In this document: positions 4,759 to 63,473 of the stretch, in pieces
Numbering within the stretch: position 1 is the stretch's first letter
Layout: each line of letters opens with the position of its first letter
Assembly (NCBI GenBank): GCA_964016885.1
Contig: OZ024751.1
Coordinates: 45,260,001-45,324,000 of the forward strand
Direction: 5' to 3'
Origin: Eledone cirrhosa
Lineage: Eukaryota
DNA: 64,000 nucleotides
Translations under genes and position numbers: made by a program
The notes under the pieces: model-generated
Told to the model about the DNA's origin: nothing
Database searches by the model: none
The model's input: only the letters and a program-made list of their open reading frames with translations

Positions 4759-4846
4759 ATGGAGTGTCCGCATCTTGAGGAAAGTGCAAAAATTACAGCG
4801 CCTTCTGTAAAGTCAGAAAACCTTCCCCAGCAGTTTACTTGTTCAG
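4759..4846 (+). CDS. USP3: USP3 exon 1
   Basis: ATG at 4759, [29 protein letters not shown], donor G|gtaatg. Confidence 0.92.
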
Positions 4847-13201: not shown

Positions 13202-13258
<57 letters not shown>

Positions 13259-13318
13259 CTTTTTCCTTCTTACTTATAACCTTTGATTTGTTTGAAACTA
13301 ACTTTACCCCCTTTTCAG

Positions 13319-13373
<55 letters not shown>

Positions 13374-19300: not shown

Positions 19301-22300
19301 CACTTCCTGCATCACAACCATCACCTTCACTCCTCCTACCACCATCACCATCTACACCCCTCCCACTACGACCATCACCACCTACTCTTACTCTCACCAT
19401 CACCCTCTTAAATGATAAAAGTGTGATTAACTCCACCATCAGCCATTACAATCCACCTTTGCCTGTTTTAGCAGGATGAGCTCCAACAACACCTAATAAA
19501 CTGCATCAATAATTAAATTATATTAATTTCAGATTAAATATTTCTGATAGAAATAGACACAAATATTTTACAGATATCACCTAACAAAGTATTTTTATCT
19601 CGCAGAGTGGTGGGGGTGGGGTATCTGATAAAAAATTGTCCACACTCACACCTATGCACATGCATGCACACATACAACGATAGACCTCCATGTGTTTCAG
19701 TGTTGGATGTCCCAAATGTATGATCAATGGAACATCCGCTCATGAAGTTAACATGCATGTGGCTGAGCATTTTCCACAGACACGTGTACCCTTAATGTAA
19801 TTCTCAGGAAGATTCAGCATAGACACAGAGGATAATATATGAAGGAAGGCTGGAGAGAAATGAAGCTAGCATGCTTCGATGGATGTGCAATGATAAAGGG
19901 ATGAACTGAGAGACAAACTCGGCACGAGGAATCAGATATTGTGTACAAGAGAAAGGACTGTTCTGGTATGGACATATGATACATATGGATAATGATTGCT
20001 GGCTGAAGAAGTGCTAAGAAATCCCAGTAGAGGGAGACCAAGGAAGACTTGGGCAGAAGCTCACAGAAATGATGGACTGTGATGAGAAGAGAGATGCAAC
20101 TCATGAAAGCTTTGAAAAGCAGGCATGATAATATATGACATGGCTGGACCTTTGAATTTCAAGCATGATCCCTTAGATGGGGTTCCACACTGTTTCCATC
20201 TAATTTCACTCATAAGGCTTTGGTCAACGTGAGTTTTGTGAAGCTAATGTTCAATTTCAACCTTTATAGATCAACATCTGAGAAAACATGAGCAGTGTGT
20301 AGCTAATAAGGGAACCTCTACATAATCATTCAATCTACCAGAAATAGCAGTTAAATCTAACTCAAATCACATCCTTTTTTAAAAAGGGTGCATACATTGG
20401 TTCTATGAAATATAACCACCTATTATAAAGGGTTTTTACTTAAATTAAGATCTAACACAATTTTTGTTATTTTAATAATAAAATAATTACTGTATATACT
20501 TGAATATAAGCCGACTCCACTATTTTATGTCTGAGAAATGGGCAAAAATCCAAACTTTATGTAGAATTTGAAGTTGATGAAAATCATCAAAATATAAGCC
20601 AACACCTCTTTTAGTCACATATTTCTCAGCTTATATTTGTGTATTTATGGTAATAATCTTATTAAATCCCTCCAAATTATTTATTAATTAACTGTAATAT
20701 TATATGTTTCTCTAGAAATATGGTAATAAATGGGTTAATGTGCTCCTAAATACTCTGTATTTGAAAATGAAAACAAAAACAAAGAAGGATGGCATGGTTG
20801 GATTGTCAGTAACTTAAGTTCCAGATCAGTTACAGTAGAACTGCATCAGTGACTAGGTCACAAATAGTGTGACAAAAACTTTTAGTGCCAAGAAATGATA
20901 AATGTAAAGTAAATCTAATGGTATTTGTGAGTGTGTAAATAGTTAAGATGACTCTACAATGATGTAATAGCTTTAGTTTCAACTTACAGTCTCAGATCAA
21001 GCAACTTGCCAAACAACTACAACTCTGAAATCAATTAATAAATAATTATAGAAAATGATATTATAAAACATCTATATTTAGATGTTTTATTTGTATTTTT
21101 GTTTTATTTTTTTTCCTAAAGGTCATACTTATTTCATATACTTCAACTTCTTTATTATTTTACAATCCCCTTTCTTCTTCCTTAATTTTTAATCTAATTT
21201 TCAAACATTATTTATGAAATTAAGCCCCAACAAAATCAATATTTTGTTAATGAGACACAAGTTTATTGACATAATAATGTGAACATAATAATTATCACTG
21301 TCTGGCTATATGGTGTAAGATATGAACTACTTTACTGTATATACATACATATCACTTGAAAAGCTAAGGAGTCAATGTATACATGAGTGCTAGACCTGCT
21401 AGAAATAGCAACCAATTCTTTGGATGTGCAGTGTTTGAAGTAAAGATTGTGTGGTTGTAATCATGAGCCTGTTTTCAATCCAGTTTGTCTGGAGGTTAAA
21501 CAACCTCAGACATTGAAACGAGGTAAATTTTGCGTTTCATCCTTATGAAGTGCAAATCCAAGGTGGTGGATTTGCAGAATTGCTAGGGCTTCAAAGGAGA
21601 TACCATGCTGGGAAACTGGTCATGTCAAGGCTCCTTCTGACGATATAGTTTAAGGCAATGTCGAAAGAACCGACCATACCACCACAACAGTACTTGTGTG
21701 ATTCAGGCAGAGGTGCTAGGTGCACTCACGATTAAGAAGGGTACAGGTAGATGAGGAGAGCACTGGATTGTGTTCTTACACACACATACATACTTAATTG
21801 GCAGTAGCAGTAGTATATGCTTACATACATACATCCTTTTTAGTTCCCATTATCATTGTTTAACATCCGTTTACCCTGCTAGCAAGGGTTGGATGAGTGT
21901 ATGTAGACCAAGCCAGTACTAAAGTGGGGCTACTGACCTCTCAGACAGGCTGGGAGGCAGGATGCATTTTACTTACGTATGATCTTACATTCTATTGAGT
22001 GCAGAGAAATTGTCATCTTTTTGACACAACTGAAGGGTCCTCCCAACTCTTTGTTTGACAAACTTTCTATGGGTGAAACCCTTCCTATTAGCAACCACTT
22101 TACAGCATGTACTGGATGTTTTTATCATGTAGATCATTAACACTAGGGAGGTTGTCATGTCCCTGACACAACTGAAGGGCCCCATACGAGAGTTGATTCT
22201 CTTGAGTTTTAAATACACTTAACTCTCATAAGTGGGAAACAATAAAACTAACAATGAAAACATTGTCAAGAACCACCAAACACATATGAGTATTTCTCAT

Positions 22301-25300
22301 TGGTAATACCATTAATTGTATTTAAGTGTACCAGACTAAAATCAATGGTTTGATAACCAACATATCTAAATCAGCATCCCACTGTTCTGAGTTCAAATTC
22401 TTTTAAAATTGACCCTTTAGCATTTACTGGTGCTACGCAGTAATACAGAAGACCCACCTTGCCTATGTACAAAGCGAAACCTACAGTCAGTAGGCACCTC
22501 TTAACCAAATATACACCACAATCCACTACCCCTCCCACTCCCACCAACACAGCCCTCTCTCTGTAAAGTTGGTACCACAACATCCAGTCCAAATAAATGA
22601 GATAATGAGATCGAGATTGTGTAGGTGTCACAACAAAAAACACAGTCAACACTGTAATGTGGTCGTGTAGGTAACACGGTAAAAAGTTCCCAGTTCCACA
22701 TTGTAAATGTGGTTGGTGTTAGGAAGGGCATCCAGCCGTAGAAAACCTGCCAGATAGTCCTATATGAGCGAGACACGGTCACCTGACCAACCTTGACTCA
22801 AATTGGGACAACTCTCGTCTAACCCATGCTAGCGTGGAAAATGGACGTTAAACGAAGATGATGATGATGATTACTCTATATTTACTATTGTATTTTTGTG
22901 GTAAAGTCTTTATCTTACATAATTGTTTCTACTTTTGGCACAAGGCCAACAATTATCCAGTACATTACTGGTACTTTATTTTATCGACCCCCACTAGGAT
23001 GAAAGGCAAAGTTAACCTCGGCGGGATTTGAACTCAGAATTGCAAGGGCCGTAACTCTATGCGTCAAAGCATGGCGTCCGACCCTCTACCGATACTGCCA
23101 ATCCATCTCACATAATATTGAATCTATGAGATTTTGATATTATTTATATTGAGAACAATGTCTTAACATCACTACAAGTGGCAAGTTACGGCTGGTTTGA
23201 ACAGAAAGAGGTGAGAGAATTCTGGCTGGATATGGCCGATTTAAATGCTAAAGGGTTAATAGAACAAATATCAGTAATTTGCTGGTGTTAAAACTCAGCT
23301 ACATTCCAACCTTAGAAACTTTATACATTACATTCAAACAAAAAAGAAAATGTTATTGAACAATGTAAAATAACCAATCCTGGTGATAATTGAAATATAA
23401 AACATTCCTCTCAAGTTAATTATAAAATGTAATAAATATAATTAGAATATAATTAAGAAAGAAAATCATGAAAATAAAACAAATCTGAAAACACACACAC
23501 ATGTGTGTGTATATATGTATATATATATATATATATATAGCTTAAACTAAAATATGTTCTTTGGAACTTGTTAGTTTTCAAATTCAATAATTGCTATTTC
23601 TTTATTGATTTAAATGTAATTGAAATAAAATTCATTATTCTCATAAAATGTCTAGCAGTAGTTTTGCTGCAGGCCTGCCTTTAGGAGACTTATGATCAAA
23701 GGCTTTTCAGCTATGACCATCATGTTTTCTTTTCTTAGGCAGTGTATACCCATGATCACATTACCAAGTCTGTCCTTTGTTTTTTAGGCATTGTACACCT
23801 ACAATCACATTATCTAGTGCAGCGTTTCTCAACCTTTTTACCATTGTGGAACCCTTGAAATAGGTTCATGTCTCAGGGAACCCCTACATAAAAATTATTA
23901 TATACCATTATTAATATCTATCTCTTATATTGACCTAGTTTTAAATAATTGTTTCTACTTTAGGCACAAGGCCAACAATTACCTAGTGCATTACTGGTAC
24001 TTTATTTTATCGACCCCCGTAAGGCCTAGTTTTAAATAATATAAGAGGTTGAAGCCTTTTACGACAATATGCCGTAAATGTATAGTAAAATTACGAATAT
24101 AAAATTAAACAAAAATTACTTTTTAAAATACATTAGTTTATTTATCACTGGTTCTCGCGGAACCCCTAGCGACCTTGCGGAATCCCAGGGTTCCGGGGAA
24201 CATCGGTTGAGAAACGCTGATCTAGTGTGTCCTTTTTTCTGAGGCAGTATACTCCCACATATTTGTCCTCTTCGAAGTATGCCCCTCCCACTATCTTGTA
24301 CCTCCTCCACACACCACACGTAGTCCAGTGATCCTTCTACTGTTTGAAGGATGTTTGGAATGCTTCTCCAGAATTGCTGTCTACATGATGTCCTATCGAC
24401 TCAAAGCTAAAGCTTTTCAGTGGCATCTTCATTTTTGGGAATGGGGATTTCTTAAGCAAGAAACCTTGAATTAATTATGACAAATGAACTGGTGCCTTGT
24501 CATGGTGCGGTTACCAGGTTTGCGAGGCCCACAGATCTAGTCTCTTGCACAAAACTGCATCATTTTTACATCCATTTTCTATGCTTCTAAAGTGCATGCT
24601 AGTTGTGTGTGTGTCTATATGTATATAGATAGATAGATAGATACATACATATGCAGACAAATATTTAAGTTTACTCTTTACTTTTAAATCTACCTGTCCC
24701 TGTTTCAGATTGTTATTCTGTATCCCCCCCCCCCCCTCTCTCCTCTACCTTTCCCTTGATCCCCCTCTCCTTTTCTCTTTTCTTTTGTCTGTCTTACCTG
24801 CAATTCTCTCAATCTCTCAGGCTAATCTAAATATATCTAACACATACTCTCACCCCTCCCTCTCTATCACCAACTTTCCTCTTCAGTAATCCTACCCACC
24901 CCTGTCTCCAGCACTTCATCAACCCTCTTCTCCACTATCTACCCTCTCTTGCTATCCACCCTGCGATCTACCCTGCCAGCAGTAAATACAGACCAAGATT
25001 GATAAACACCTGCCTGTATATCAGTCATTAGATCTGGTCACTCCTGCTTCCTTCTCTCTCACACCACACCTCATTTTCTTCTCCTTCCTTCACCCTCTCA
25101 CACCCTGATCCCCCTCCTCCTCTCTGAGCCTTTCTCACCATATTCCTCTTACTGTCTCTTCCTCCCCCTCCCTCTTATTGATACAGTAATGATTGATGAC
25201 CAACAGCCTGTCCAGGATGGGGAAGTGGAGGGGATAGGACCAATCTTTAGAAATAGAACAGTTTTTAACATTTTGGTCAACAAACTCACTTCCAAGAAGG

Positions 25301-26006
25301 AAGTAATTAAAAGTACATCAAAATGTTTTTTTTTTTGTATGTATGTGTGTTCCTATATATGTCAACAACGAAAAAAAAAAAGAAAAAAAAACTACATGAG
25401 AACAATACAATCCAATGATAGTGTCTATTCCTCCCCTCTCCCTTTTTTTCATTGATTCTTTTTCTTTTCATTTCCCTTTTTTTGTTCCTTTTAATAGTGT
25501 TTTGTTTTTGTATAAACAGCTTTGTAAAATAAAATAACTTAAAACAAAACTCCAATGATAGTATATTAGTTTAATGCTTGATAGAGTTGGAAGAGAGTCT
25601 TAATGTTTTTGGCTAGTATCGCATGAGAATATGGAAAGAGAGGATGTTTGAGAGATAGTGAAGGAAAGAAAAGGTATGTGTTAGTCAGTCATCTGTATGT
25701 ATGTGTGTGTGTATATCATCATCATCATCATCATTTAAAGCAAGGTGTTGATAAGTTACCATAGACCAAATCAGTACTTTAGCCCTCTCTGACAATCCTA
25801 TTTATATATATATATATAACAAAGGAATTGTGGTAAGGAACCAGATGGACCATAACGCACCAGAGTACTCAATACTTAGGGTAGTAGAGTGGGAAATAGG
25901 AAAAAGTATGACCCCGACGGCAGAGCTCAAGCCGTTTCGATGGCTATTTCTGTCCAGAAATAGCCGTCGAAACGGCTTGAGCTCTGCCGTCGGGGTCATA
26001 CTTTTT

Positions 26007-26040
<34 letters not shown>

Positions 26041-28779
26041 AAAGTATCAAAGGAAACTCAATCTTTTTTCAACAAATAATAGCTTTTAATCCCTTACAAA
26101 TGTTTCAGATGAACTATGACTTCGAATTATTCAAATTTCATTTCCACACACACACACCCACACATATATCTATCTATACATATGTATATACACACACACA
26201 CAGCCAGGCACTTAAACACCATCACAAACAAATATATAGCTTATTCCTCCAATATATATGCTGATACACAAAAAATTAAAAATACAACACACAAGCACTC
26301 ACATGTCACCCTTTTAAAAATTTTATATTTTCTAATCTATCTACTCATGTACTCGCCTGTTGAAGGGCTAACGTCCAATGTATCAACCTTCGTTTGTAAT
26401 TTATATAAATGAAATAATTACTGTATATACTCAAATGTAATCTGACCCCACTTTTTTATGTCTGAAAAATGGGCAAAAATCCAAACCTTATTTACATAGA
26501 ATTTGAAGTTGGTGAAAATCGTTAAAATATTGACCCCCAAAAATATATATATTTATATATATATATATCAATGATATTAATAAATGGAAACTATATTTAT
26601 AAAACCATATTTATTCTATTATATATATTTCAAGGGTATCAAAACTTTGGTACGCTATCATCAGATAAAATACAAAGTTTGTTTTATAAATATTGACATA
26701 TCCAGGAATGAGACCTTAACGGTTCAAGTTTCACCTGGATATCTAGTTTTGGTACTCTTGAAATATATATAATAGAATAAATATGGTTTTATAAATATAG
26801 TTTCCATTTATTAATATTATTGATATTATACTCCAGAAAACCTGTTGAGTGCTTCGAATCTGTTATAAATATATTTGTTGAATTACCAACAAATTAAATA
26901 TCCCTTTGCTTATATATATATATATATATTTTTTTTTTTTTTGTCACATATTCCTCGGTTTTTATTCGAGTATATACGATGTATACTTGCAGTTTAAACC
27001 CAGACTTGAAAGTAGCTATAAATGGAGCACAAAGCTATAAATGGAGCACAATTGTTGTTAATGATGACATCTAATTCCTAGTTAGTGTCAAGTCTCCTAT
27101 GATCTACATTCTTGGCAACATTTATCTTGCAGTGTTTCTTGTCACACAGCTAATTTGGAATTTATTTTCTTCTCAATGTATTTATTTTACTGAAATTACT
27201 GGATATTTTTGTTTAATTCTTTTCTTCAATAAATTTGAATTAAATTATGTTTGTAATAATAAAAAAAAAAAAAAAAAAAAAAAAAAATGAAATTGTGAAA
27301 ATAATGGAAATGAGTGGCAGCTGACTCTATACCCCAGTCTATGCTGTGAAAGAAAGAGGGGGAGGAGGTAATATGACACTGAAAGAGTGGTGAATTATGA
27401 AAATGTGTAGAGCGTTAGATAAAATGCCATTGTGGTATTCGTTCTGGCTCTTTACATTCTGAGTTCAAATCCCACTTAGGTCAACTTTGCTTTTCATCTT
27501 TCCAAGGGTCAATGTGGGGGTTGATCTTATGAACTTACCCCTTCTGAATTTGCTGGCCTTGTACTTAAATTAGAAAAAAAATATTATGGGACTGAGAATG
27601 ACAGTAAAAGGTAGAGAGCTAAAACCACTGTGGTGGCAGTAGAGAAGCAGGCAATAGCTACATGTAAATAAAAAGAGAAAGGGAAAAGTATGTCCTAGAC
27701 ACAGAGAAAGATATAATAGATGTTTCTACTGTATATTTCTTCATCTTTATCTTAGATATGTTAATGGTCATGCAAGAAAGCACTACGAAGAAGCCAATAC
27801 ACGTACACACTCAGTTTGCATGGATTGTGATAGTTACTCTGCCTTTTGGTAAGTACACAAACACATTTTATTATACAATTCCTTACCGTATTCCTTGATT
27901 TTTGTTTTATTTAATTTTACCGTATAAAATTCACCCTGTCAACCCTGTAATGTGGTAGTGTTGATGTCATGATAAAACACATCCAGTTCACTCTGTAATG
28001 TGTTATTGTTGGTGTCAAGATAAAACACATCTAGGTATTTCAGCCATAACCATCCTGACTTTTTATGGGTATCTAAGACTATATTATCTAATATGTCCAC
28101 CTGAGGGTGTATTTGAGGGAGATTTGGCTGCTATTTCTAGTAAAGTTTTGTCATTAAATCTTTAACATCTTGTACCACATGAAAAGCACAAACACCACTA
28201 TGACTGTATCATATTAAGAATGAAAGTCTTTGCTCTAATATTTAACATTTTCACAACAATCTGTCCACTAGTAAAGACACAATAAACATTTGAATTAACA
28301 AACCTTTTTTTTTTAAGACATTTTATGCTAAACCATTATAGGAGATAACTAAATTTTTTCTATTTAACTGATGTTTTTTTTTTTTTTTTTTTTTCTAAAT
28401 GTAGAACAGACAGCTTTCTGTTGTCTTAAGGCTATTTACTCTGTCATAATTAATATTCTAATTAATAATTGCCAGACTTTTTAATTAACTTACACTCTGT
28501 ATTTCTCCCCCACCACCTTCTATTTATTATAATGTATTAAAAAAATTATCTAGATTTTCTTCCATCAATGTTGTGTTTAATCTTACTTATAGTCAACACA
28601 TTTTACCTCCTCCTTCTCCTCCATTGCCCATTACCCACACCACTGTCTACTATCTTCGTCCAATTTCCATGCTGGCATGGGTTGGACAGGATTGTTACTC
28701 TCTGGGTCAGTTCCTATTCACAGTCACACCTCCCCCACTCCTAGATGGAGGTCAGAAGACCATATCTCTTGCTTAAAAC

Positions 28780-28828
<49 letters not shown>

Positions 28829-31547
28829 ATTTTTTAATTCTATTTTCCCTGTCCATATTTTTCAAAGCTTGAATACATTATTAGATAGAGCTTGGAGATG
28901 ACAGAACAGATGTTATTGGCAGGACTATGGTAATAGAGAATTAATCCAAAGACCCAGTAGTCGACTACTATAACCATCTAGCCACACACAGACAGAGTTA
29001 GTATTATTGGCATGACTGTGGTAAAAGAGAATCAATCCAAAGACCCAGTAGCCGTGTATATCTATCTAGCCTCACACACACACACACACACACACACAGT
29101 GTTACTGGCATGACTGTGGTAATAGAGAATCAATCCAAAGACCCAGTAGCGATCTAGTATCTATCTAGCCTCACACACACACACACACAGTGTTACTGGC
29201 ATGGCTGTGGTAAAAGAGAATCAATCCCAAAACCCAGTAGCCGTCTATATCTATCTAGCCTCACACACACACAGTGTTACTGGCATGGCTGTGGTAAAAG
29301 AGAATCAATCCAAAAACCCAGTAGCCGTCTATATCTATCTAGCCTCACACACACACACACACAGTGTTACTGGCATGGCTGTGGTAAAAGAGAATCAATC
29401 CAAAGACCCAGTAGCCGTCTATATCTATCTAGCCTCACACACACACACACACACAGTGTTACTGGCATGGCTGTGGTAAAAGAGAATCAATCCAAAGACC
29501 CAGTAGCAATCTGTCTACACCCACCTAGCCTATGGCTCTAGACATCTTACAAATGAATGATGCTGCAGCTAATATTGTTTATCATTACTATCATCATCAT
29601 TACCATTATCATCACTACAGCCACTATCACTACCATTACCATCATCACCACCATTACCATGATCATCACCACAACCATCACTATTATCACGATCATTATC
29701 ACCACCATTATTATTACTAGATAAATGTTATTGCTCTTTCCTCTGTCTGTCTGTCTGTGGGTCCTTGTGTGTGTGTGTGCAATCAAGACTATATGTAAAT
29801 ATATTTGTATTTAATGCATTCCTCTACATGTGTGTATGTGTTTGCATTTGTAACTGTCTGTGTATATGTAAGTTCATATCTGTGTGATATCTTCTCTTCC
29901 CCTCCCTCCCCCTGTTCCCACCCCAGACCTCCCACCAGTTAAAGAATCAATAACTATATTTAGTTTAGTAGTCAGTTTTAATCTTACTCTTAGTCAAACA
30001 TATTGATTGGAAATGACTAAACTTTCCACTTAAATTCTCCATTATGTTGCTGTTGTTGTTGTTAAGCAGGATTCAGTAATTTGATTTTTGTTTTTACTTA
30101 TTTTACATTTTTTTTAAATGTATATATGTGCGTGTGATATATATTGATGTATAGATATACACACACACACATGTGTATATATTTTAAGAATTACGTTTAT
30201 TTGTGAATTTACTTATTTTCTGAGTTCATTTTGATTTTATCTTTTTGTCTTGTTTTTTTTCTTTTCTGAATTGATAAAATATGTACCTGTTATTGAGTGG
30301 GGTTGATAAAATATATACTTGTTATTGACTGGGGTTGGTATCTGTCATCGACTGGGGATGATGAAATATGTACCTGGGGTTGATTTAATTAACTACATCC
30401 CTATCGGTAATCATTCAGACATACGACAAAGATTTTTAGTCAATTTTATTTCAGAGTTGTCTCTCTTGAATTTCTTGACAATAATTAATGAAGTTTTCAA
30501 TAACTCCTGTTTTAGTTGGTTGAATAATTTTTGTTGTGGTAAGGTGTGCTCCCACTTAACTATATATTCTTCATGTGGGAAATACTCATATGTATGTGTA
30601 CATCGCAAATTCTAGAATGCGGTGTCAGGAAGGGATCTGGCTGTAAAAAAATTCTCAAAACATCCCATCCAGCCCATGCCAGCATGGAAAAGTGCACATA
30701 AAATGATGATGATAATATCACACACACACACATATATATATATACACACACATCATCATTTAATGTCTATTTTCCATGATGGCATGAGTTAAGCAGACTG
30801 TCTTGTTATGAGGTCAGACGGATCAGGTGACCACGTCTTAATCATACAATCTGGTTTTGGCTTGGTTTCCTAGTTGGATGCCTTTCATATATTGAAAGCT
30901 TTTTTTTTTTCTTGACATCAGCATTGCCACCATACAGGGTGGATTGGGTGCTTTTCGTCATGCCACTAGTACAACCACTTTACAGGGTAAACTGTCAGTC
31001 TAGATGTAATATATGTCTTTATCTGTAGTAATAGAAGCAGTAGTACCACCAGATGTGTGTGTCTAGATGATAATATACAGATGTAATAGATGTCATTATC
31101 AGCAGTAACAGATGAGTGTGTGTACCAGTCTAGATGTAATATGTCTTTATCTGTAGTAATAGTAAGAGTAATGTCACCAGATGTGTGTGTGCCAGTCTAG
31201 ATGGCAATATACAGATGTAATATGTCTTTATTTGTAGTAATAGTAGCAATAGTACCACCAGATGTATGTATGCTAGTCTAGATGGCAATATACAGATGTA
31301 ATGTTTATCTTCATCTGTAGTAACAATAGTAGAAGTATAGTATCACCAGATGTAATGTGTGTTTATCTGTAGTAATAGTAGTAGCAGTAATGTCACCAGA
31401 TGTAAAATGACATTTACAATTATCATTACTCATAACTCCTGACTAAAACATAGCAAATTTCATGTTTTATTCATCAAACTTCATCCATTTTAGCTTTGCA
31501 ATATTTCTCTCTCTCGTTCTCACACTTTCTCTTATATTATCTCTTAA

Positions 31548-31604
<57 letters not shown>

Positions 31605-33130
31605 TCATCATCACCGTTTTACGTCCGTTCTTCCACGCTAGCATGGGTTAGACGGGTTGTCTGGTTGGCTGACCTTGTCTTGCTCATACGGGAACTGATT
31701 CTGGCTTGATTTCTACAGCTGGATGCCCTTCCTAACACCAACCTCATTTACAGTGAGTTCTGGGTGCTTTTTTTTTTTTCGTGGCACCTCCATGACCACT
31801 TTGCAGTGGAATGATAGAGACCCCAGTCCCTATCATCTCATTTCTACAGCTAAGTAAACTGGAGCAATGTGAAATAAAGTGTCTTGCTCACGGAAACAAC
31901 ACATCATCCGGTCCAAGAATTGAACTCACAACCTTTCGATTGTAAGCCCAATGTGTAACCACTAAGCCATGCGCCTTCATTTATAATATATATATACACA
32001 TGTACTTTAACATTTATTTCCATGCTTGCATGGGTCAGACAGCTGTCATATGCTGAGGTTGGGCTGGTCAGTTGACGAGCTCCTGCATGTATGCTAGGTT
32101 TTGGTTAGGTATTTTATGGCTGGATGCCCTTCCTAACACCGACCACTTTACAGCATGGCTCTAGAAGTATCACCTTATAGGGTGGATTGGTTGCAGCACT
32201 ACCTCATTAAAACACTAGGGGAGCTCAGTGTCCTTTGTCTGGCTGGGGGAGGCATTGTTTGGGGTGGCAGACAGGGAAAGTACAGACATCACACTGTCAG
32301 GAGGAGGATGGTGGGTTGAAATGGCCTTGAGGCATGTGTGTGGTGTCTGATATATGGGGTGTGTCTGAACTAAATGTGTGTGGAGGGCGTTTATATGCTA
32401 CTTGCAAAGGATGGAGGTGTCGGAATATATTTATGTATATACATGTGTGTATGTGTATATATGTAATATAATTTAGCATTCATCTTCCTTTTCGTATTAT
32501 TTGCTGTTATTCTTTACTCCACCCCACCTATCTTACTGTTATTTTAACCCTCCCCCATCCCTCAACCATCTCATTCCACCCCCACACCTCGCTGTTATTC
32601 CACCCTCACCCCACCCCTCTCATTCTAAAGAAAGGAAAATAATGAATTTCTCCTGATTACTTTTTGCCTTGTCTTATTCAACTCTCCCTCTCTTTATTTT
32701 GTTCTCTCCCTCATCCTGTTTTTCTTTCATTCGCTCTCTCCCTCTTTTTCTTTCATTATCTCTCTCTCTGTACAAGATATCATTTTCCTCATTCACCTCA
32801 CCTCCTCCTTATTCTTACTTCACCCTTAAATTTTATTTCATATTTCATAAATCTCTTTTTCCCTTTAGCTACCTGTTGTTGTTGTTGTTCTTCTTCTTCT
32901 CACCACCACCACCACCACCTCACCACTGCCTCCATCTCCATCATGACCATCACCATCTAAATGGAACCAAACTGATTGATTCAAAAATACATCTTGATTA
33001 TTAAACTTCAATGTTTTACTGTATATACTCCGATATATATATTTATTTATTTACTGTATATACATCCATAAATATACTATATATACGTCCATATATATAA
33101 TATATTTATATATATATATATATATAAATA

Positions 33131-33168
<38 letters not shown>

Positions 33169-33729
33169 TTATATATATATATATATATAATCTACTGTAT
33201 ATACATTCATCTTTTAGCAATCCCCCTCCACCTTTAACCTTCTTCACCACCTTTGCCTCTTTCCTTCTCCTTCAGTTCTTTCTTTCACACCACCACCACA
33301 ACCGACTTTTACCTCTTCTCAACCACCACCTACCCTTTACCTCCTCCTCTACGACCACATATCTTTTTAGTTCCTCTACCCCCCCCCCCCCCCCCCCCCC
33401 CACCACCACCACCACCACCACCACCACCCACCACTGCCAGGAAGATTTTTCTATTTTTTAAAATTTCATTTTCAGGTGATGTAAATTGCTGAATCTTTAA
33501 TACATAACATAATTAGAGTTGTGTGTATGTCTGCCTGTGTCATCACCATTTAACGTGAGCTTTTCCATGCTAGCAGCTCTCTTTCTCTCCCTCTCTCTCG
33601 AGTGAGAGAGATATGTATAAGTGTATGTATACACTCACACACACACACACATATATATACACACATATGTATGTATATATATGTGATCATCATTTAAAGT
33701 CTGTTTTCCCTGCTACCACATACATACAC

Positions 33730-33801
<72 letters not shown>

Positions 33802-33934
33802 GATAAGGTGGACAAAATATGACAAAAAGGGAGACTCCCCTCTCTGCAAAACAACAATAACAAACCTTACTCTTAAAGTTGAATTAAGTACAGATAGAAA
33901 ATACTAACTGAAGGAGTATGCTCTAGAAATTGTG

Positions 33935-33977
<43 letters not shown>

Positions 33978-36288
33978 ATGCTGATGTCTATAAATTCATA
34001 AATACATACACACGTGTATGTATGATTCTGATGATGTATCCATAAATACACACGCGTGTATTTGTATATTGAACAATGAAAATAAAACAAATGTTGGTTC
34101 TTAATTAGTTCATTGTTTATATATGCATATGTGTGTGTATGTATGTGTATATATGTGTATATATATATAATGCTGTTGCTCATGATGTAAATAAATCCAT
34201 ATATGCATAAATATATATATATATATATCTATTGTGTGTGTATGGGAAAAAGGGCTGTTAAATGATGATGAGGATGATAATAAGCATATGTATTTATATA
34301 TATATAGATAGATAGATAGATAGATAGATATGCGCACACAAATATGAATATATACATATACATAATTATGTATTCAGATATATTCACGCACACATGAGAG
34401 AGAGATAGAATTATTGCTTTTTTAATCAATGCAATCTTAATGAAGTCATTGTTTTCCTGGGGTTTGGTATTAAAAAACAAAAATCCACAATTTCTGTGTG
34501 GAACTTTCATCTGTTGGAAATTAACGAAGGATTGAGACTTGCAAATTAAAAACATCAAATGATGCTTCACAAAATGAGGCACTAATAGTGTGTGTGTGTA
34601 TGTGTGTATAGATATGTGTATGTATGTAAGTATATATATATATGTGTGTGTATGTATATGTGCAAATCTGTATGTGGTGTCTCACTAATACCTTACAGAG
34701 TATACTGGGTGCATTTTATCATGGCATCAGCACTAACACCTTACAGAGTGTACTGGGTGCATTTTATCATGACACCACCACTGACACCGTACTGGGTGCA
34801 TTTTATCATGGCACCAACACTGCCACTTTACTGAGTGCACCGGGTGCATTTTATCATGGCACCAACACTTCCACCTTACTGAGTGCACTGGGTGCGTTTT
34901 ATCATGGCAGCAGTACTAAAGAGGTTGTCATATCTTTGACCAGATTAAAAGGTCCTCTCTATCTGTTAACGTCTTTCTTGTGTACTATCATAGCACTAGC
35001 ACTAGAGATGTTGTCTTGTCCTTGACAAGACTATTTGGTCCTCTTAGCACTAGAGATCTTGTCTCCACTCTTCTCCATCATCATTTTACAGAGTGTACTG
35101 GGTATAATTTAATACTAGCGATGTTGCCATGTCCTTGACAAGACCCTAAAACCCTCTCTGTCTTGCGTTGTCTCCACTCCCTTCCATCACTAGTGACAAA
35201 TGAGATACTTTCCTTATGACTCAGTGTTTGTTATTTTATAGATTTCAAGTGATCAGGCTGTTACTGCACACATGTAGAAGAAAATGGAGGAATGCATGGC
35301 ATATAAGTAATTGTGTGTGTGTGTGTGTGCACATGTTTGAGTGTCTGTCTGTGTGTATGCATGTGTGTGTGCACATGTTTGGGTGTTTGTCTTGGTGTGT
35401 TTGCACATCTGTTTGGGTGTCTGTCTGTGTGTATGCATGTGTATGTTTGTGTCTGAATACATGCATGTGTGTTTCATCCATTTATATTATGTAGAACAAA
35501 GATGTCTTTTATATGTGGCTACCTATCCTTTAGTTAGCCACTCCACCTGTCAAGTAGGAAGTGGTGACATTCATTGTTTGACTGTAAACACAAAGCAACT
35601 ATTTAACGGTCGCTTTGTGGGTATATGTGTATGTGTGCGTCCCTGTCTCCTTGTAGATATGTTGGTGTCTGTGTCTCCTTATATGTAAGGTGGTGTGTCT
35701 GTGTCTATGTCCTCTCCCCTGTGTCTCCTTATACATATTTTGGTGTGTATGTCTGACCCTGTGTCTCCTTGTGGATGTGTGTGTGTGTCTCCTTGTACAT
35801 TTGTACATATGTTGGTGTCTCTGTCCCCGTGTGTCTCCTTGTACGTGTGTTAGTGTGTGTGTGTCACTGTCTGGGGTTGTATGGGTATATGTATCTGTGT
35901 ATGTGGATTTTGTCTCCTTGTATATATGTGTTTACTTCTTGTGTATATGTGGGAGTGGATGAATGTGTGTATGTCTGTGTGTCTATACATTATATTTCTT
36001 GAGATAAAGCACTTTAATGCAAATCTTGAAAAGGCAGACAAAATGATGTTGATGATGATAAAAACACTCCTCTCCTTCAATACCTGGTAGACTTATAGCC
36101 ACACCTCTCCTTCAATATGTTGTTGTTTAGCCCTAGGTCAGCCTGAGACACTTACAGTCATTAAACTATCTAGAACAGATATGTGGTGCTGACTAGACAA
36201 AGGCACCCCTAACACTAACAGCTTTGAGTGTATATGTATATACACATATATATGTTGAACAATGAAAATAAAAAGACTAAGTTTAGTG

Positions 36289-36359
<71 letters not shown>

Positions 36360-36461
36360 CACAGAGAGAGATAATGATGTAAGATAAACCACTTATATTT
36401 GCTTCTAGTAGTGTTTAAATAGTTGATTTTGAATCAGTTGCAATATATTGTAGGTGATAAC

Positions 36462-36501
<40 letters not shown>

Positions 36502-37445
36502 ATAAATTTATAACACTGTGCCACACACCGTCTCACTCAATACTAACTGAAATGACTCCTAGTAACAGAGTTACTTCACTTAACAGAATCAGTGGTGTAA
36601 TGGCAATATTGAACAGACTGATTAGGTTTAGCAATATATTTCTTACTCTTGTTTCTCTTTCGATTTTTCTCTCTCTCTTCCAATGAAGGACCAATGTCTG
36701 AAACATTAAGACTATTTTCTTACTACATCAAATGTTAAACTAATATATATCATTATATTGTATTCTTTTCCTATAATGTTTTTTTTTGTTTGTTGACTCT
36801 TTGCATACACGCATGCATGTGTGTGTATATATATATATATATATACACGCATGCATGTGCGTGTGTATATATATATATATATATTGTTATACTTTGGGAG
36901 GGTCATGTTGCCAATAAGAAACACACGCACCAGTTGCTTTCACTTCAATTTAATTTAATATATATTTATAAATTTCTGGTTGGTTGGTTGGTTCCACAAC
37001 CAGATAGTTGTTTATATATATATAGTCATAGTTCTTTCGTCACACACTCTGTGACCTCTTCAGTGACTGGGGATTTCTTTCTTCGTTTCTGTGCCTTTCC
37101 TTTCTTCTATCCTACGCCATTTTGTTTGTGTGTCACACAAACAAAATGGCGTAGGATAGAAGAAAGGAAAGGCACAGAAACGAAGAAAGAAATCCCCAGT
37201 CACTGAAGAGGTCACAGAGTGTGTGACGAAAGAACTATGACTATATATATATAAACAACTATCTGGTTGTGGAACCAACCAACCAACCAGAAATTTATAA
37301 ATTTATAAATATATATTAAATTAAATTGAAGTGAAAGCAACTGGTGCGTGTGTTTCTTATTGGCAACATGACCCTCCCAAAGTATAACAATATCGGTTTC
37401 AACACACGATTTCAGATAAAGAATCTTGCTAAACAAATTCAGAAA

Positions 37446-37483
<38 letters not shown>

Positions 37484-37489
37484 GCATGC

Positions 37490-37535
<46 letters not shown>

Positions 37536-37635
37536 GCATGCATGTGTGTATATATATATATATACACGCATGCATGTGTGTATATATATATATATACACG
37601 CATGCATGTGTATATATATATATATACACGCATGC

Positions 37636-37668
<33 letters not shown>

Positions 37669-37706
37669 CACGCATGCATGTGTATATATATATATATACA
37701 CGCATG

Positions 37707-37750
<44 letters not shown>

Positions 37751-37756
37751 CACGCA

Positions 37757-37812
<56 letters not shown>

Positions 37813-37818
37813 CACGCA

Positions 37819-37853
<35 letters not shown>

Positions 37854-40045
37854 TTACATATGTATAAGTGTATATGTGTGTGTGTGTGTATATACATACA
37901 CACACACAGGGTGTCCCAAAATATGTATACACACTTTGATTATAATGCTGTTGAAGTATGTATATATTTTTGGGGGACACTCTGGATATGCATGAGTATA
38001 TATATGTGTATATGTGTGTGTGTGTGTGTGTTCATTAATCTTCAAAGAATCTCAGTATAGAACCTGTGTTTGTCTTCTATTTATCACCATGACAACATGA
38101 TAGCAGTGCTACTAAATCTCTTTCCATCTCTATGTGCTTTCGGTTTCTATTATTTTCTTTTTTGTTAGCTTTTATAATATTTTCCCAGCTTCATAGATTG
38201 GAGGTAAACTCCATGCTACCTTCAATATGTTACCTTTTGTCCCTGAGTACATTTGGCTGACACAGGTGACATCTTTCACTTTCAGTGGTCACTCATCATC
38301 ATCATCAACATTTAATGTCCATTTTCCCTGCTAGCAAGGGTTGGACAGGTTGTTACAAACCAACTCAGTACTTAATCTGGTATTACTGACCTCTCCGGCA
38401 GGTGGTGTTACCAAGGACAACTCTTCAGTCATAGAAACTGAGCAAAATACAGAACATATGAGTAAGATGTGGTTACCTCACTTGTATAGCCTTACTGTTT
38501 GACAGCTTGTCTAACCCATGCAAGCTTGGCAAATAGACATTAGACATTGCTGATAAAGATGATGATGATGATACTGTGGATAGTGATGATATGTATGTAT
38601 AAAGCAGAGACTGCTATATTTTGTGAAGGCACATAGCTCAGTGGTTAGAACATTAGGGTGTTAGTTCAATTCCCATACCAAGCAGTGTGTTGTGTCCTTG
38701 AGTAAGACACTTTATTTCACGTTACTCCAGTTTACTCAGCTGTCGAAATGAGGAGTTGCAACGTCACTCGTCTTCCACAAACAACCTTACCCAGACTTAT
38801 GTCTCGGAGGGAGACCAAAGGGAGTCTTTACCTTTTATTATATTGAGATTGGCAGAATCGGTGGAGGGTCGGACGCCATGCTTTGACGCATAGAGTTACG
38901 TCCCTTTACGATCTGAGTTCAAATCCCGCCGAGGTTAACTTTGCCTTTTTCATCCTTACGGGGTCGATAAAATAAAGTACCAGTAATAGACTGGGATAAT
39001 TGCTGGCCTTGTGCCAAAGGTAGAAACAATTATATTGAGATTACTCTCTGTGAGTTCCTTGGGTTCCTGCTTGATCAGAGAGAACCCATGAGAGTAATCT
39101 CAGTAAAATATACAAATAAATATAATATATGACACACAAGCCAAGACCCCTTAGCACTGCGGTTGGGATTTTACATTCATTCATTCATTTTCATTTCATT
39201 TTATGTCCGTTTTTCCCTGCTTGCAAGGGTGGGACGGGAACTGATTCTGGCTTGATTTCTACAGCTGGATGCCCTTCCTAACACCAACCTCATTTACAGT
39301 GAGTGCTGGGTGCTTTTTTGTCGTGGCACCTCCACGACTACTTTGCAGTGGAATGATATGGACCCCGGTCCCTATCATCTCATTTCTACAGCTGAGTAAA
39401 TTGGAGCAATGTGAAATAAAGTGTCTTGCTCAAGGAAACAGCACATCATCCGCTCTATAAATAAATATATTGAAATTCTGCCGTTCTGAAACTAGGGTGA
39501 CCGCAAATCAGAGTAGTACTCTATGCATGGGAAGAAGCAGAGTTGGTATAGAGGAAGGAGCATTTAGTTATGGCACTATGTTCAGAGCTGAAATTCAACT
39601 TTGCCTTTCACCCTTCCGATGTCTATAAAATAAAGTACCAGTAATGTACTGGGGCCTTTCCCCCTCAAATTGCTGGCCCTGTGTCTAAATTAGAAACTAT
39701 TATAAAAAAATAACCTAAGGACTACAGTGAATGTTTATATAATTATATTTTTCACTTCCTCTCTCACCTATCCACTCTCTTTCTCTATCATTCTCTCCTT
39801 ATCTATCTGTCTGTGTGTCTTTCTACTTACCTACCTCTCACCTATCTATCTATCTACTTACCTGTCTCTCTCTATCTACCCCCCCAATCTCGCATTCTCT
39901 GTCTATCACTAATTATTACAAATCTAATAGGCTTACCACCTCTGTGTCATCTAAAATATAGCTGCCTGGGCATCCTTATTGATTTTTTATTGTAGATTAA
40001 ATTAATTACTTCACTAGCTATTATTGCTAAACTTTAGATTTAATC

Positions 40046-40085
<40 letters not shown>

Positions 40086-42310
40086 AAAGGGAGAGACATA
40101 GAGACTGTATGTGTGTGTGTGTCTAAGAGAGAGAGAGACTGTGTGTGTGTCAAAGAGAAAGACACAGGGACTGTGTGTGTGTGTGAGAGATAGCGACAGA
40201 CAAAGATTGTGTCAAAAGAGAGAGAGAGAGAGGCAGAGGCTTGTGTGTGTGTGTCAAAGAGTGAATGAAAGAAACAGCGCATGTATATATGTATCTGTTT
40301 ATATAAGATGTTATTACTATTGGTCAGACTGTAGTTATATGTTGTCCATCCCCCTACCTTTCCTACTTAGTATACTGTAAATACATTTGATAGTGCCATC
40401 CATATACCCACTTCCTATCCTGCATTATTTTCTAATCTATCTGGGAGTGTTTCCACATTACTGTCTTATGGGGATATATAATGAAATACATGTTTCAATT
40501 ATTTAATGCAAAATTTAGAGGGTTTTACTATAATTTTTCTGTGAAGTCATCCATTTTAAAAAGGTTTCTATTTAAATTAATACCTAACATACTTTTATAT
40601 ATGAACCTTGTGATAAGTTATGTTACAAATACCAGCTTGATAATGAACGTGTGCTATGTTATGAACATGATGTGGATGTGATGTGAACATGGATGATGTG
40701 AACATGTGCAATATTATTAATTATTTTAACCAAATGCAGCTGTAGTGAATTGTAAGATTATTTATGGTTTATTTAATCTTATTTTAAGTTAATAACTATA
40801 TTTTATTTTCTAAATTAGCCGTCATTTCATTATTTTATATAAGCTTCATAATTATTGTCTCTCTCTCTTCTGTCCAGTTATATCTGTGATGAATTTGTGG
40901 TCAATGATACGAAAGGAGGACACCTGGAAAAACTCCGAAAACATCTCCAGTCACTGAACAGGTATTTATCTTTACACTACATACTTAGTACACTTATATA
41001 GAGTAGTTGGTGATAAGGACATCCAGCTGTAAATAACTTGTCAAACAAACGTTTGAGAGGACTCTTCCGTCATCTCTCTAGTGTTGCTGCCATGATAAAA
41101 TGTACCTAGTACACTCTGTAGAGTGTGGGAACATATGTAAGTGGGATGTGAGCCCCACTGCCCTATCAGTACCAACGATTAAATACTGACTTAACTTGTG
41201 ACGATCCATCCATCTTTTGCTGGCAGGGAAATATGTTAAATGATGATGATGGTGATGATGACCACCCTCTGGCTCTATTATTGCTTGATATCCTACTTAT
41301 TTAAGTATTTTCTAATATATACACACGCATGTATGTGTATGTGTGTTTAAGTTAAAGTCTGTTCTAAGCCGAAGGGTCGTCAGGCTGGTGCTTATCTCTG
41401 GTTTCCTTGGTGTTAAATGACTGAGAATAAAAGACTCTCTCTGGATAGGATGCTGGTCTATCGCTGGATTAACTACCCAGGCTATTGCTGGTACTAACTC
41501 ACAGCTGAGTGTACTGGAGCAATCTTAAATGAAGTGTTTTGCTCAAGAACATGACATACAACCCAGTCCAGGAATGAAGCTGACATTATAATTATAAGTC
41601 CAATATCCTTACCACTTAGCCATGTCTGTGTTTGTATGTATATTGTGTATGATGGTCATTTTCTTCTTAACTCCCACAGTCGACATACAAATGTGTGTGT
41701 GTGTGTATATTATGTATGACAGTTTTCTTTGTCTTCTCAACCCCCACAGCCACAGAGACGTGTATGTTATGTATGATTATATTTTTCTTCTTAACTCCCG
41801 CCACAGCCCACAGAGTCGACTGAGAGATAAATCAAAAAGAACTTCTCAAACAGATTCAGTTGAAAATAACAAAAGGAAAAAAATCAAATTGGTGAGTGAT
41901 CTGCCCCCTTTTTTACGTTGAAGATAAGAGAGTAGTGTGGGTGTTAGATATATAGTAGGTAGTAGTGGAAGTGGTGATGGCTGTGGTAATATTATATGTA
42001 GTGGTTGTGGTAGTATGATTTTTAAATAATTTTGAAAATAGTCAAGAATTCAAAGGAGTTTACTAAATTAACTAACATTCTCATTATTAAGTTGGTGTCT
42101 GGAACAACAAATGTTCTTACATAAGACTATGATGGAATGATTGTTTTTGATAAAATTAAACCCTTTAGAATAAACAGTTTTCTATTGTAGAAACGGGTGA
42201 TTTCAGGTGGTTTGATATCAAAATGGTTAAAGCTTTGACAGACTATTATCTCACATAAATTGAATATCTTTATATTGATGTTTTCTTTATATATGTGTGT
42301 GTATATATGT

Positions 42311-42348
<38 letters not shown>

Positions 42349-45300: not shown

Positions 45301-45534
45301 ACAATCCCCTGTTGAAAATAACTGATTTGCTACATAAACTGACATTATTATTTATACTTCTATATTCTACATTTGTCTGTCTTCTAGATTTATCATTAGA
45401 TATTCCAATCCAGTATTGTTCAAAAGCAGCCCTCAAGTCCAAAGAAAGTGAAGGAAGGTGTAAATTAACTGGTGAGGACAAACTTAATTTTCTTCTCTAT
45501 ATTACAGACAAGTGTGTTTATGTATGAGTGTGTG

Positions 45535-45596
<62 letters not shown>

Positions 45597-59201: not shown

Positions 59202-59364
59202 TAGCTGTCAGTCGAAAGCAGCCGATGAAAGCAAAACATCGTTTATTTCCGTATTACTACCACGCGTAAGTGGAGTTACTTGGTGGTAGTAATACGGAAA
59301 TAAACGATGACGAATGACGTCACCTTCGCCTACTTTCATCGGCTGCTTTCACGACTGACAGCTA
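59202..59364. mobile_element. Fold-back MITE with ~28-bp TIRs, TA TSD and a 27-bp internal inverted repeat
   Basis: TA-gctgtcagtcgaaagcagccgatgaaag ... ctttcatcggctgctttcacgactgacagc-TA; inner perfect IR 59237-59263 / 59283-59309. Confidence 0.8.
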
Positions 59365-61769: not shown

Positions 61770-63460
<1,691 letters not shown>

Positions 63461-63473
63461 TGTATATACTATA

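What the first reader, a model, noticed from the sequence alone, without database searches (positions are those of the whole stretch)
25818..37449. Family-level pattern: (TA)n-targeted fold-back mini-elements carrying hammerhead parts (Penelope-like self-priming system)
Seen: three long inverted-repeat inserts (25818-26010, 26565-26910, 36881-37449) and a small one (3651-3715) all lie in (TA)n tracts. The three long ones share an asymmetric layout of two mirror arms plus an unpaired tail on one side. Two contain recognisable hammerhead core elements, and two tails share TTGAGT(A/G)CT, also found in a TA-flanked orphan at ~17755. Known: Penelope-like elements carry minimal type I hammerheads in their pLTRs and often have inverted 5' ends. 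Inference: these are non-autonomous, microsatellite-targeting PLE derivatives from at least three unrelated subfamilies, made by cDNA fold-back synthesis. They would plant long perfect dsRNA hairpins in host introns.
Basis: partly seen in the sequence, partly recalled or inferred. Interest (0 to 1): 0.8.

Follow-up and report, generated by a model that had tools for sequence, protein, structure and literature searches.

The report
Octopus Penelope-type head-to-head mini-inserts
Three short mirror-image inserts, each with a one-sided tail and hammerhead-ribozyme motifs, sit between TA microsatellites in introns of a mollusc (likely octopus) gene; they are likely pieces of Penelope-like retrotransposons in a layout already published, and relatives' junctions suggest they were likely made by two DNA copies joined head to head rather than by fold-back.

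Summary
The three long inverted repeats are real (arms 57, 82 and 252 bp). Each has (TA)n on both sides and a 54-84 nt tail on one side, and all lie in introns of a molluscan, likely octopus, USP3 gene. B and C carry complete minimal type I hammerhead motifs; A has only the 3' half. Reads show A and B are very high-copy families whose short arm often meets (TA)n at one fixed site.

This layout (inverted truncated copy, one-sided tail, hammerhead, (TA)n target) is published for Penelope-like elements, including the Hydra clade with an octopus member. The shared TTGAGTRCT is chance-level alone, but it is one strand of a bulged hairpin that also occurs at the termini of published Hydra elements. 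That links A, B and the orphan to that clade, so they are not unrelated.

Fold-back synthesis is not supported. In other A copies the unit starts at a fixed point while the inverted piece is variably short, often tail only. Two cDNAs primed from both cut ends and joined head to head fit better. The small insert at 3651 is unlinked, and no parent ORF was found. Known kind, with two modest new details.

The parts
25819..25895 (-). Element A: unpaired 3' tail (77 nt), continuing from the long arm and ending at (TA)n
   Evidence: highest-depth part of the family in reads, also present in organism B
25864..25890 (-). Element A: bulged tail hairpin (ACTC-TAC-loop-GTA-TT-GAGT-ACT)
25896..25952 (-). 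Element A: long (tail-bearing) arm
25952..26011 (+). Element A: short arm, the family's unit, with a fixed 5' start near 25952 and a 3' end sharing TAT with the (TA)n tract
   Evidence: joints and loose ends
25969..25991 (+). Element A: 3' half of a hammerhead-like motif (GAAA, 5-bp helix III, GUC); no CUGANGA half
   Evidence: read from the sequence; absent from descriptor hits
26565..26744 (-). Element B: short arm (26565-26646) plus its own upstream 98 nt, including an internal hairpin
26614..26670 (-). Element B: minimal type I hammerhead (6-bp helix I, CUGAUGA, decayed helix II, GAAA, palindromic helix III)
   Evidence: other subfamilies keep the core with different helix II letters (loose ends at 26636, 26641, 26759)
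26745..26826 (+). Element B: long arm, starting in loop II of the hammerhead
26827..26910 (+). Element B: unpaired 3' tail (84 nt) with bulged hairpin at 26830-26853
36881..37132 (-). Element C: short arm (252 nt), with mirror hammerhead at 37024-37068
37134..37393 (+). Element C: long arm (260 nt), a pLTR-like unit
37198..37242 (+). Element C: minimal type I hammerhead (5-bp helix I, CUGAAGA, extra base, 5-6-bp helix II with G-C closing pair, GAAA, 2-bp helix III, CUA site)
37368..37447 (+). Element C: ATG and open frame running through the tail (about 27 codons); possible start of a parent ORF; tail is 37394-37447
   Evidence: no protein relative found
17703..17787 (+). Orphan E: 85 nt between two (TA)n tracts, with the same tail hairpin (17741-17763); likely a truncated tail-bearing copy of another subfamily
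2633..2715 (-). F: 5'-truncated, diverged (78%) copy of C's 3' end and tail, ending at a (TA)n tract, with no inverted partner
3650..3716 (.). D: small imperfect inverted repeat around a central (TA)n; no link to the others found
4759..48825 (+). Host gene USP3 (coding exons at 4759, 16529, 27754, 40879 ... 48825); E, A and B lie in intron 2, C in intron 3, D and F upstream of the start codon

Best explanation
A, B and C are short non-coding inserts with mirror arms, a one-sided tail and hammerhead motifs between (TA)n tracts; they are likely 3'-end (pLTR plus tail) derivatives of Penelope-like retroelements, likely Hydra-type for A and B, and were likely made when both ends of a cut (TA)n tract each primed a cDNA and the two cDNAs were joined head to head. 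Steps: (1) Inferred: a Penelope RT/GIY-YIG protein, supplied in trans, binds a short RNA, probably at the conserved tail hairpin. (2) Inferred from PMC11167929: it cuts both strands of the self-complementary (TA)n. (3) Shown as geometry, inferred as chemistry: one 3' end primes at the end of the tail, the other at an internal UAU/AUAU just upstream of the tail, which matches the target by 3-4 nt in 3 of 3 elements. (4) Shown for family A in reads: the internally primed copy runs to a fixed 5' point, while the tail-primed copy stops anywhere. (5) Inferred: the two are joined, sometimes with 1-11 extra bases, and filled in. When both copies are long, a near-perfect hairpin with a one-sided tail results. 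The hammerhead rides along and does not set A's 5' end. In USP3 pre-mRNA the arms would form 57-, 82- and 252-bp duplexes.
For: Geometry and 3-4 nt junction microhomology in 3 of 3 elements. Hammerhead motifs fit the published minimal PLE type, and B subfamilies keep the core while helix II letters change.

(two contig sets and one raw-read set of this organism, one contig set of another): depth on A and B is 10^5-10^6 against about 6 on unique flank in X1, and thousands against about 0 in X7. Loose ends at 25896 are (AT)n in 286 X1 contigs and 3503 X7 reads. Of 15 joints listed, 12 are A-type skips; all 12 resume at 25948-25960 (9 at 25952-25955), they leave from 25849-25920, and 9 of 12 leave inside the tail. 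Seven A-type joints in table 5c have 1-11 letters between.

Tail hairpin: 3 in the window against a mean of 0.05, 0 of 100 shuffles reaching 3 (pattern made after seeing them). By eye, the same stem-bulge-stem with other paired letters is at termini of published Hydra consensus sequences: clear in Hydra-2_Amil, Hydra-2_Ajap and Hydra-1_Ajap, degenerate in Hydra-1_Amil and Hydra-1_Crog, not seen in Hydra-1_Obim. Hydra elements have hammerheads, nearly all insert in (TA)n, and include an octopus family. A PLE protein cuts and extends both strands and has two RT starts that bracket the tail.
Against: No RT or GIY-YIG sequence is linked to any copy: none in 150 of 462 window frames of 48 aa or more, no relative for C's short frame, and no whole genome to search. 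Rfam hammerhead models do not hit, and neither motif folds better than shuffles. A lacks the CUGANGA half. Tails are 54-84 nt against the published 30-40. PMC11167929 reports priming without homology to the cut DNA, unlike the microhomology seen here. The octopus Hydra consensus lacks the tail hairpin and shows no likeness to A, B or C by eye. 10 of the 12 A joints are flagged 'between: not known', 150 joints and 1461 loose ends were not shown, and X1 may be the sample the window came from. The 1-2 nt loops of A and C also fit fold-back. A paralogue of the repeat that hosts B has no (TA)n at the matching site.
Confidence: 0.68

Rival explanations
1. Fold-back self-priming: one cDNA folds on itself and copies itself to make the mirror arm (first reader; also proposed for PLE palindromes in PMC3846280).
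For: A and C have 2-nt and 1-nt loops with essentially perfect arms. Contigs from other loci cross A's centre in one piece (records 1, 2, 9, 10). Published hypothesis.
Against: In B the short arm has 98 nt of its own upstream and the long arm has its own tail; one strand copying itself cannot give both. In 9 of 12 listed A joints the inverted piece lies wholly in the tail, which has no mirror in the unit, and the breakpoint is fixed on one side only.
Confidence: 0.13
2. Same mechanism, but these are extreme 5' truncations of ordinary autonomous PLEs, not copies of short non-autonomous master RNAs; the fixed start in A would be a strong RT stop at a structured site.
For: PLEs are heavily 5'-truncated. 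F is a plain truncated copy of C. C carries an ATG and an open frame into the tail, as Pen2a_Av does. A's start lies where loop II of a hammerhead would be.
Against: The loose ends upstream of 25952 have no common sequence (agreement 0.46, 168 contigs), and no listed contig continues into an ORF (most rows not shown). The A unit differs between subfamilies and species while the tail is kept.
Confidence: 0.25
3. The (TA)n flanks are seeded or expanded by the insertion rather than chosen as targets.
For: A paralogue of the host repeat around B (20463-20647) has about 13 non-TA bases where B's locus has TA tract, B, TA tract. Short arms end in TAT/ATAT, which could slip.
Against: One paralogue only, 16-20% diverged. 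C sits in the middle of a compound TA minisatellite present on both sides. (TA)n preference is reported across Hydra and Naiad clades.
Confidence: 0.15
4. DNA transposon derivatives (MITE or foldback type) inserted at TA.
For: Inverted repeats and TA flanks; MITE-like elements occur in this window (59202-59364).
Against: Ends are not mirror images (tail on one side); variable truncation; a copy with no inverted partner (F); hammerhead cores kept across subfamilies.
Confidence: 0.03
5. Assembly or library fold-back artefact.
For: C's arms have no substitution, and C was not tested on reads. No listed contig spans these exact loci.
Against: Arms differ within A, B and C (1 and 3 substitutions, an 8-nt indel). 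Flanks are different on the two sides. Diverged hairpin-form copies and TA junctions appear in a second sample and in raw reads of another study.
Confidence: 0.02

Closest known systems
Hydra clade of C-terminal EN+ Penelope-like elements (Craig et al. 2021, PMC8557442), including Hydra-1_Obim from Octopus bimaculoides
   Same: Type I hammerhead near the 3' end; insertion in (TA)n; an inverted 5'-truncated copy noted for Penelope-13_HM; a tail hairpin of the same architecture at the termini of 3 of 6 new consensus sequences clearly and 2 of 6 loosely (my reading of the supplement).
   Different: [quoted passage not shown]
Inverted pLTR plus one-sided tail of Penelope/Poseidon elements (Arkhipova et al. 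2013, PMC3846280; Frangieh et al. 2024, PMC11167929)
   Same: Head-to-head inverted copy, palindrome at the junction, tail on one end only, two RT start sites bracketing the tail, AT-rich target; C has the ORF-start-in-pLTR layout of Pen2a_Av.
   Different: Whole insert is only the two termini; tails 54-84 nt rather than 30-40; short end shows 3-4 nt microhomology to the target; junction pattern argues against the self-priming proposed there.
Minimal type I hammerheads of metazoan PLEs (Cervera and de la Pena 2014, PMC4209133)
   Same: Short helix I, long helix II, extra base after A9, tiny helix III (palindromic in B), mostly solitary copies; pairs on opposite strands 100-700 bp apart were noted in Schistosoma.
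   Different: C's helix III is not palindromic; A has lost the 5' half; activity untested.
Animal non-LTR retrozymes (bioRxiv 10.64898/2026.07.22.740005) and non-autonomous Chlamys elements such as MRC1 (PMC8557442)
   Same: Short non-coding PLE derivatives moved in trans; hammerheads in retrozymes.
   Different: Retrozymes are head-to-tail tandems with a hammerhead in each unit; these are solitary head-to-head pairs in (TA)n.
Twin priming of LINE-1 (recalled, from no call)
   Same: Both target ends prime cDNA, and the two are joined to give a 5' inversion.
   Different: Here both primers start near the 3' end of the element, so the two copies overlap and form an inverted repeat.

Membership tests
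EN+ Penelope-like elements | ORF with telomerase-like RT and GIY-YIG endonuclease | tested here: not met
   No such ORF in or beside the copies; they can be filed only as non-coding derivatives. The parent could not be searched.
EN+ Penelope-like elements | Inverted 5'-truncated copy adjoining the element | tested here: met
   other copies
EN+ Penelope-like elements | Tail extension at one end only | tested here: met
   77, 84 and 54 nt, longer than the 30-40 bp in PMC8557442
EN+ Penelope-like elements | Type I (minimal) hammerhead in the terminal repeat | tested here: met
   Met for C and B; only the 3' half in A; no Rfam model hit
EN+ Penelope-like elements | Variable 5' truncation | tested here: met
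   Copy F; joints
Hydra clade | Insertion into (TA)n | tested here: met
   6 of 6 ends in the window; (AT)n loose ends at A's short end. Tail-side flanks of other copies were not reported because the tool skips repeats.
Hydra clade | Protein motifs (RWK, DKT, CxCX5C linker, no CCHH) | not testable with these tools
   No ORF in hand
Hydra clade | Canonical hammerhead with 3-5 bp helix III near the 3' end | tested here: inconclusive
   B palindromic 3-4 bp, A 5 bp but half motif, C 2 bp; compared by eye with File S2
Hydra clade | Terminal bulged hairpin (my observation, not a published criterion) | tested here: met
   A, B and E have it, C does not; Hydra consensus ends read
Non-LTR retrozymes | Head-to-tail tandem units, each with a hammerhead | tested here: not met
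   Solitary head-to-head pairs
Non-LTR retrozymes | Circular RNA intermediate | not testable with these tools
   No RNA run to lay
MITE / foldback DNA transposons | Matching terminal inverted repeats at both ends | tested here: not met
   One end carries a tail the other lacks
Naiad clade | Lack of a canonical hammerhead | tested here: not met
   B and C have the full core; four motifs from A and C were absent from the paper's Naiad, Chlamys and Hydra consensus files (exact matches only)

The most novel reading that the evidence does not exclude
Octopods carry SINE-like mini-elements, in the order of tens of thousands of copies or more, that hijack Hydra-type Penelope proteins through a small tail hairpin conserved from corals and sea cucumbers to octopus. 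Their junctions record a two-ended priming mechanism that explains the long-puzzling inverted ends and tails of Penelope elements, and the complete events seed long double-stranded RNA in introns of an animal group known for heavy ADAR editing.
Probability: 0.35. Interest if true: 0.62.

Novelty: new member of a known kind. Interest (0 to 1): 0.4.

Why it matters
The layout is known, but how Penelope elements make inverted ends and one-sided tails is still open; the papers read call for mechanistic work. A family with a very large number of short copies is a natural dataset: tabulating its junctions separates self-priming from two-ended priming with no experiment. The tail hairpin shared with Hydra elements of distant phyla is a concrete candidate for the RNA signal the protein recognises, which also bears on using these enzymes for insertion. 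Complete copies would add long duplexes to pre-mRNAs, possible ADAR or small-RNA substrates, but no expression or editing was examined.

Tried and rejected
Genome and databases: no whole genome is held, so no genome-wide BLAST was possible. The cluster look-up for the closest USP3 could not be made. The organism rests on molluscan USP3 hits and a 74% match of a LINE RT to a named Octopus protein.

RNA families: Rfam on the whole window gave 234 matches, 150 shown, none above its gathering score and none a hammerhead; they are miRNA-like hairpin noise. Targeted scans gave no hammerhead. RNAalifold on three tail segments gave no structure because the alignment was out of register; three sequences are too few for covariation counts.

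Parent ORF: C's 40-residue frame had no relative. Pfam on 150 of 462 frames found USP3 domains and two weak below-cutoff hits only.

Pattern scans: metagenome contigs 0, prokaryote genomes 0, viral contigs 3 chance 18-mers.

Reads: no RNA holder listed. No empty-site joint was listed.

Weak matches set aside: C-like matches at 20846, 20976 and 40943, and hammerhead-core-like strings at 17473, 21637 and five other places that lack helix I or II. D was set aside as unlinked. The idea that hammerhead cleavage sets A's 5' end was rejected, because the fixed start is 40 nt upstream of the putative cut.

Earlier findings: none near this place or with like sequence.
Full report
Context. The window is 34.6% G+C and rich in microsatellites (231 TA tracts of 8 nt or more). 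It holds a USP3 gene on the + strand with coding exons from 4759 to 48825. Its best named relatives are molluscan. A LINE RT fragment at 63480-63998 has, as its most identical named match, an Octopus protein at 74%. An octopod source is likely but not shown. No whole genome is held. A, B and the orphan E lie in intron 2, C in intron 3; D and F lie upstream of the start codon.

Observation. A hairpin scan blind to flanks found four non-microsatellite hairpin loci: A, B, C and a MITE-like element at 59202-59364. The arms are 57 bp with 1 mismatch (A), 82 bp with 3 (B), and 252 bp with none plus an 8-nt indel (C). Each long arm continues into an unpaired tail of 77, 84 or 54 nt. All six ends touch (TA)n, against 0.78% of background positions per side. 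In all three, the short arm stops at TAT or ATAT, shared with the tract. D has its TA tract in the centre and on the left only, has no tail or hammerhead, and matches nothing else of note; I exclude it.

Hammerheads. C has a complete type I motif with a 5-bp helix I, an extra base after A9, a G-C closing pair, a 5-6 bp helix II and a 2-bp helix III. The descriptor found it on both arms, against a mean of 0.05 hits in 200 shuffles. This fits the minimal PLE hammerheads of PMC4209133 (parts 1-2 of 4 read), except that helix III is not palindromic. B has a complete but decayed motif on the minus strand with a palindromic helix III. Reads from other B subfamilies keep the core and GAAA with different, still largely pairing helix II letters (loose ends at 26636, 26641 and 26759; my reading). 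A has only the 3' half; its apparent helix II is the mirror arm. Rfam models did not hit, and the motifs do not fold better than shuffles. Activity is untested.

Reads. I laid four of nine listed runs on 25560-27200 at 80% likeness; C could not be included in the single call. X1 may be the sample the window came from. X4 is another sample of that study, X7 is raw RAD reads of another study, and X5 is another organism. Summed depth in X1 is 3.7 million on A's tail and 1.5 million on B's arm, against about 6 on unique flank. X7 gives about 14,000 against about 0. The tool warns that this is no copy number; I infer only an order of 10^4 copies or more. X5 holds A's tail (5559) far more than its arms (969 and 51) and almost no B. 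At A's short end the loose letters are (AT)n in 286 X1 contigs (agreement 0.64) and 3503 X7 reads (0.78). A's one mismatch is private: 6910 of 7386 plus-oriented X7 reads have the pairing base. Four listed contigs from other loci cross A's centre, so the hairpin form exists elsewhere.

Junctions. Of 15 joints listed (150 not shown), 12 are A-type skips: 11 in X1, 2 of which also appear in X7, and 1 in X4. All 12 resume at 25948-25960, 9 of them at 25952-25955. They leave from 25849 to 25920, and 9 leave inside the tail. Ten are flagged 'between: not known'. Seven A-type joints in table 5c (12 rows shown, 98 not) have 1-11 letters between. Loose ends upstream of 25952 share no consensus (0.46). 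So the unit has a fixed start and the inverted, tail-bearing piece is variably short. A strand that folds back must mirror the sequence next to the fold, so tail-only inverted pieces do not fit fold-back. Hairpin-tip deletion should vary on both sides. B in this window gives the same message: each arm has an extension the other lacks. The four distinct B skip joints listed vary on both sides, so a fixed start is shown only for A.

The shared motif. Alone, TTGAGTRCT is chance-level. It is the 3' strand of a stem-bulge-stem: ACTC pairs with GAGT, a two-base bulge follows, and the inner stem is TAC/GTA in A and CAG/CTG in B, with one mismatch in E. The pattern occurs 3 times against a mean of 0.05, with 0 of 100 shuffles reaching 3; it was drawn from these same sites, so that figure is not independent. 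Independent support comes from the supplement of PMC8557442. By eye, the same architecture with other paired letters lies at termini of Hydra consensus sequences: clear in 3 of 6, degenerate in 2, not seen in the octopus one, whose consensus stops at a TA-like end. Six 9-letter variants occurred 7 times in the 584,000-character supplement, 4 of them at Hydra termini. In Hydra-1_Ajap the hairpin is at the 5' start, which fits the tail being the start of the next tandem unit.

Mechanism. PMC11167929 (parts 1-2 of 4 read) shows a PLE protein, predicted to be a dimer, cutting and extending both strands of AT-rich DNA. It has two RT starts that bracket the tail, and hammerhead cleavage is not needed. 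With the geometry here, the simplest model is two-ended priming: both ends of a cut (TA)n prime cDNA, one at the tail end and one at an internal AU-rich site, and the two cDNAs are joined head to head. Shown: layout, microhomology, fixed and variable breakpoints, TA junctions. Inferred: the enzyme, the double cut, the joining step and the role of the hairpin. One difference from that paper: it found priming without homology to the cut DNA. Whether the templates are short master RNAs or truncated full-length RNAs is open. So is whether (TA)n precedes insertion: a paralogue of the repeat hosting B lacks it.

What is known. PMC8557442 (passages, sections 3 and 11, supplement parts 2, 24, 52 and 53 of 59, and searches) describes inverted truncated copies, one-sided tails, (TA)n targets, non-autonomous PLEs, and an octopus Hydra family with a hammerhead. 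PMC3846280 (parts 1-4 of 5) describes inverted pLTRs with junction palindromes and proposes self-priming. The retrozyme preprint (part 1 of 5 and passages; supplements closed) derives retrozymes from PLEs. PMC13282606 (parts 1-2 of 3) reports 31 recently active PLE families in O. vulgaris; its supplement and library were not read and may list these families. PMC8969392 was read as passages. I found no description of the tail hairpin, of two-ended priming for PLEs, or of these families in searches. That library lacks most subscription papers, Repbase and Dfam. Heavy ADAR editing in cephalopods and LINE-1 twin priming are recalled; one search gave only a listing.

Verdict. Real, biological and mostly explained: new families of a known kind. 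The tail hairpin and the junction asymmetry are small new leads that make an open mechanistic question testable. Interest 0.4.

Noticed in passing
window 59202-59364: MITE-like element with terminal inverted repeats that begin and end in TA, and a nested 27-bp perfect inner hairpin; not related to A-C.
   Followed up: no
window 26393-26976 and 20463-20647: B is inserted inside another repeat with short terminal inverted repeats; a paralogue at 20463-20647 lacks both B and the (TA)n tract.
   Followed up: partly
window 36800-36884 and 37448-37850: C sits inside a compound minisatellite of (TA)n plus a palindromic 16-nt unit, present on both sides.
   Followed up: no
window 61596-63998 (minus strand): A LINE-type RT frame runs without a stop into a 1.7-kb TA-rich microsatellite, giving a spurious 800-aa open frame.
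   Followed up: partly
window 1183-1288, 12153-12348, 15422-15601, 18327-18520, 22919-23103, 38833-39036, 48186-48369 and others: A SINE-like repeat of about 200 nt occurs in more than ten copies in both orientations within the USP3 region, another possible source of intronic double-stranded RNA.
   Followed up: no
window 37134-37155: C's unit begins with an AAAATGGCG motif that resembles a YY1/initiator site (recalled, from no call), and a TATA-like run follows the hammerhead; the unit may start at a transcription start.
   Followed up: no
window 17000-17686: A unique, GC-richer stretch ends in an A-rich segment weakly like C's tail just before the TA tract that borders E, and contains a hammerhead-core-like string at 17473 without clear helices.
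   Followed up: partly
PMC8557442 supplement, Hydra-1_Ajap 5' end: Two tandem copies of the bulged hairpin at the very start of the consensus, suggesting it belongs to the 5' UTR of Hydra elements.
   Followed up: partly
PMC8557442 supplement, 3' ends of Naiad_Obim and Naiad_Ovul: The hammerhead core halves stand in swapped order (GAAAC upstream of CTGATGA), as in a type II permutation; the paper labels Naiad_Ovul a half core.
   Followed up: no
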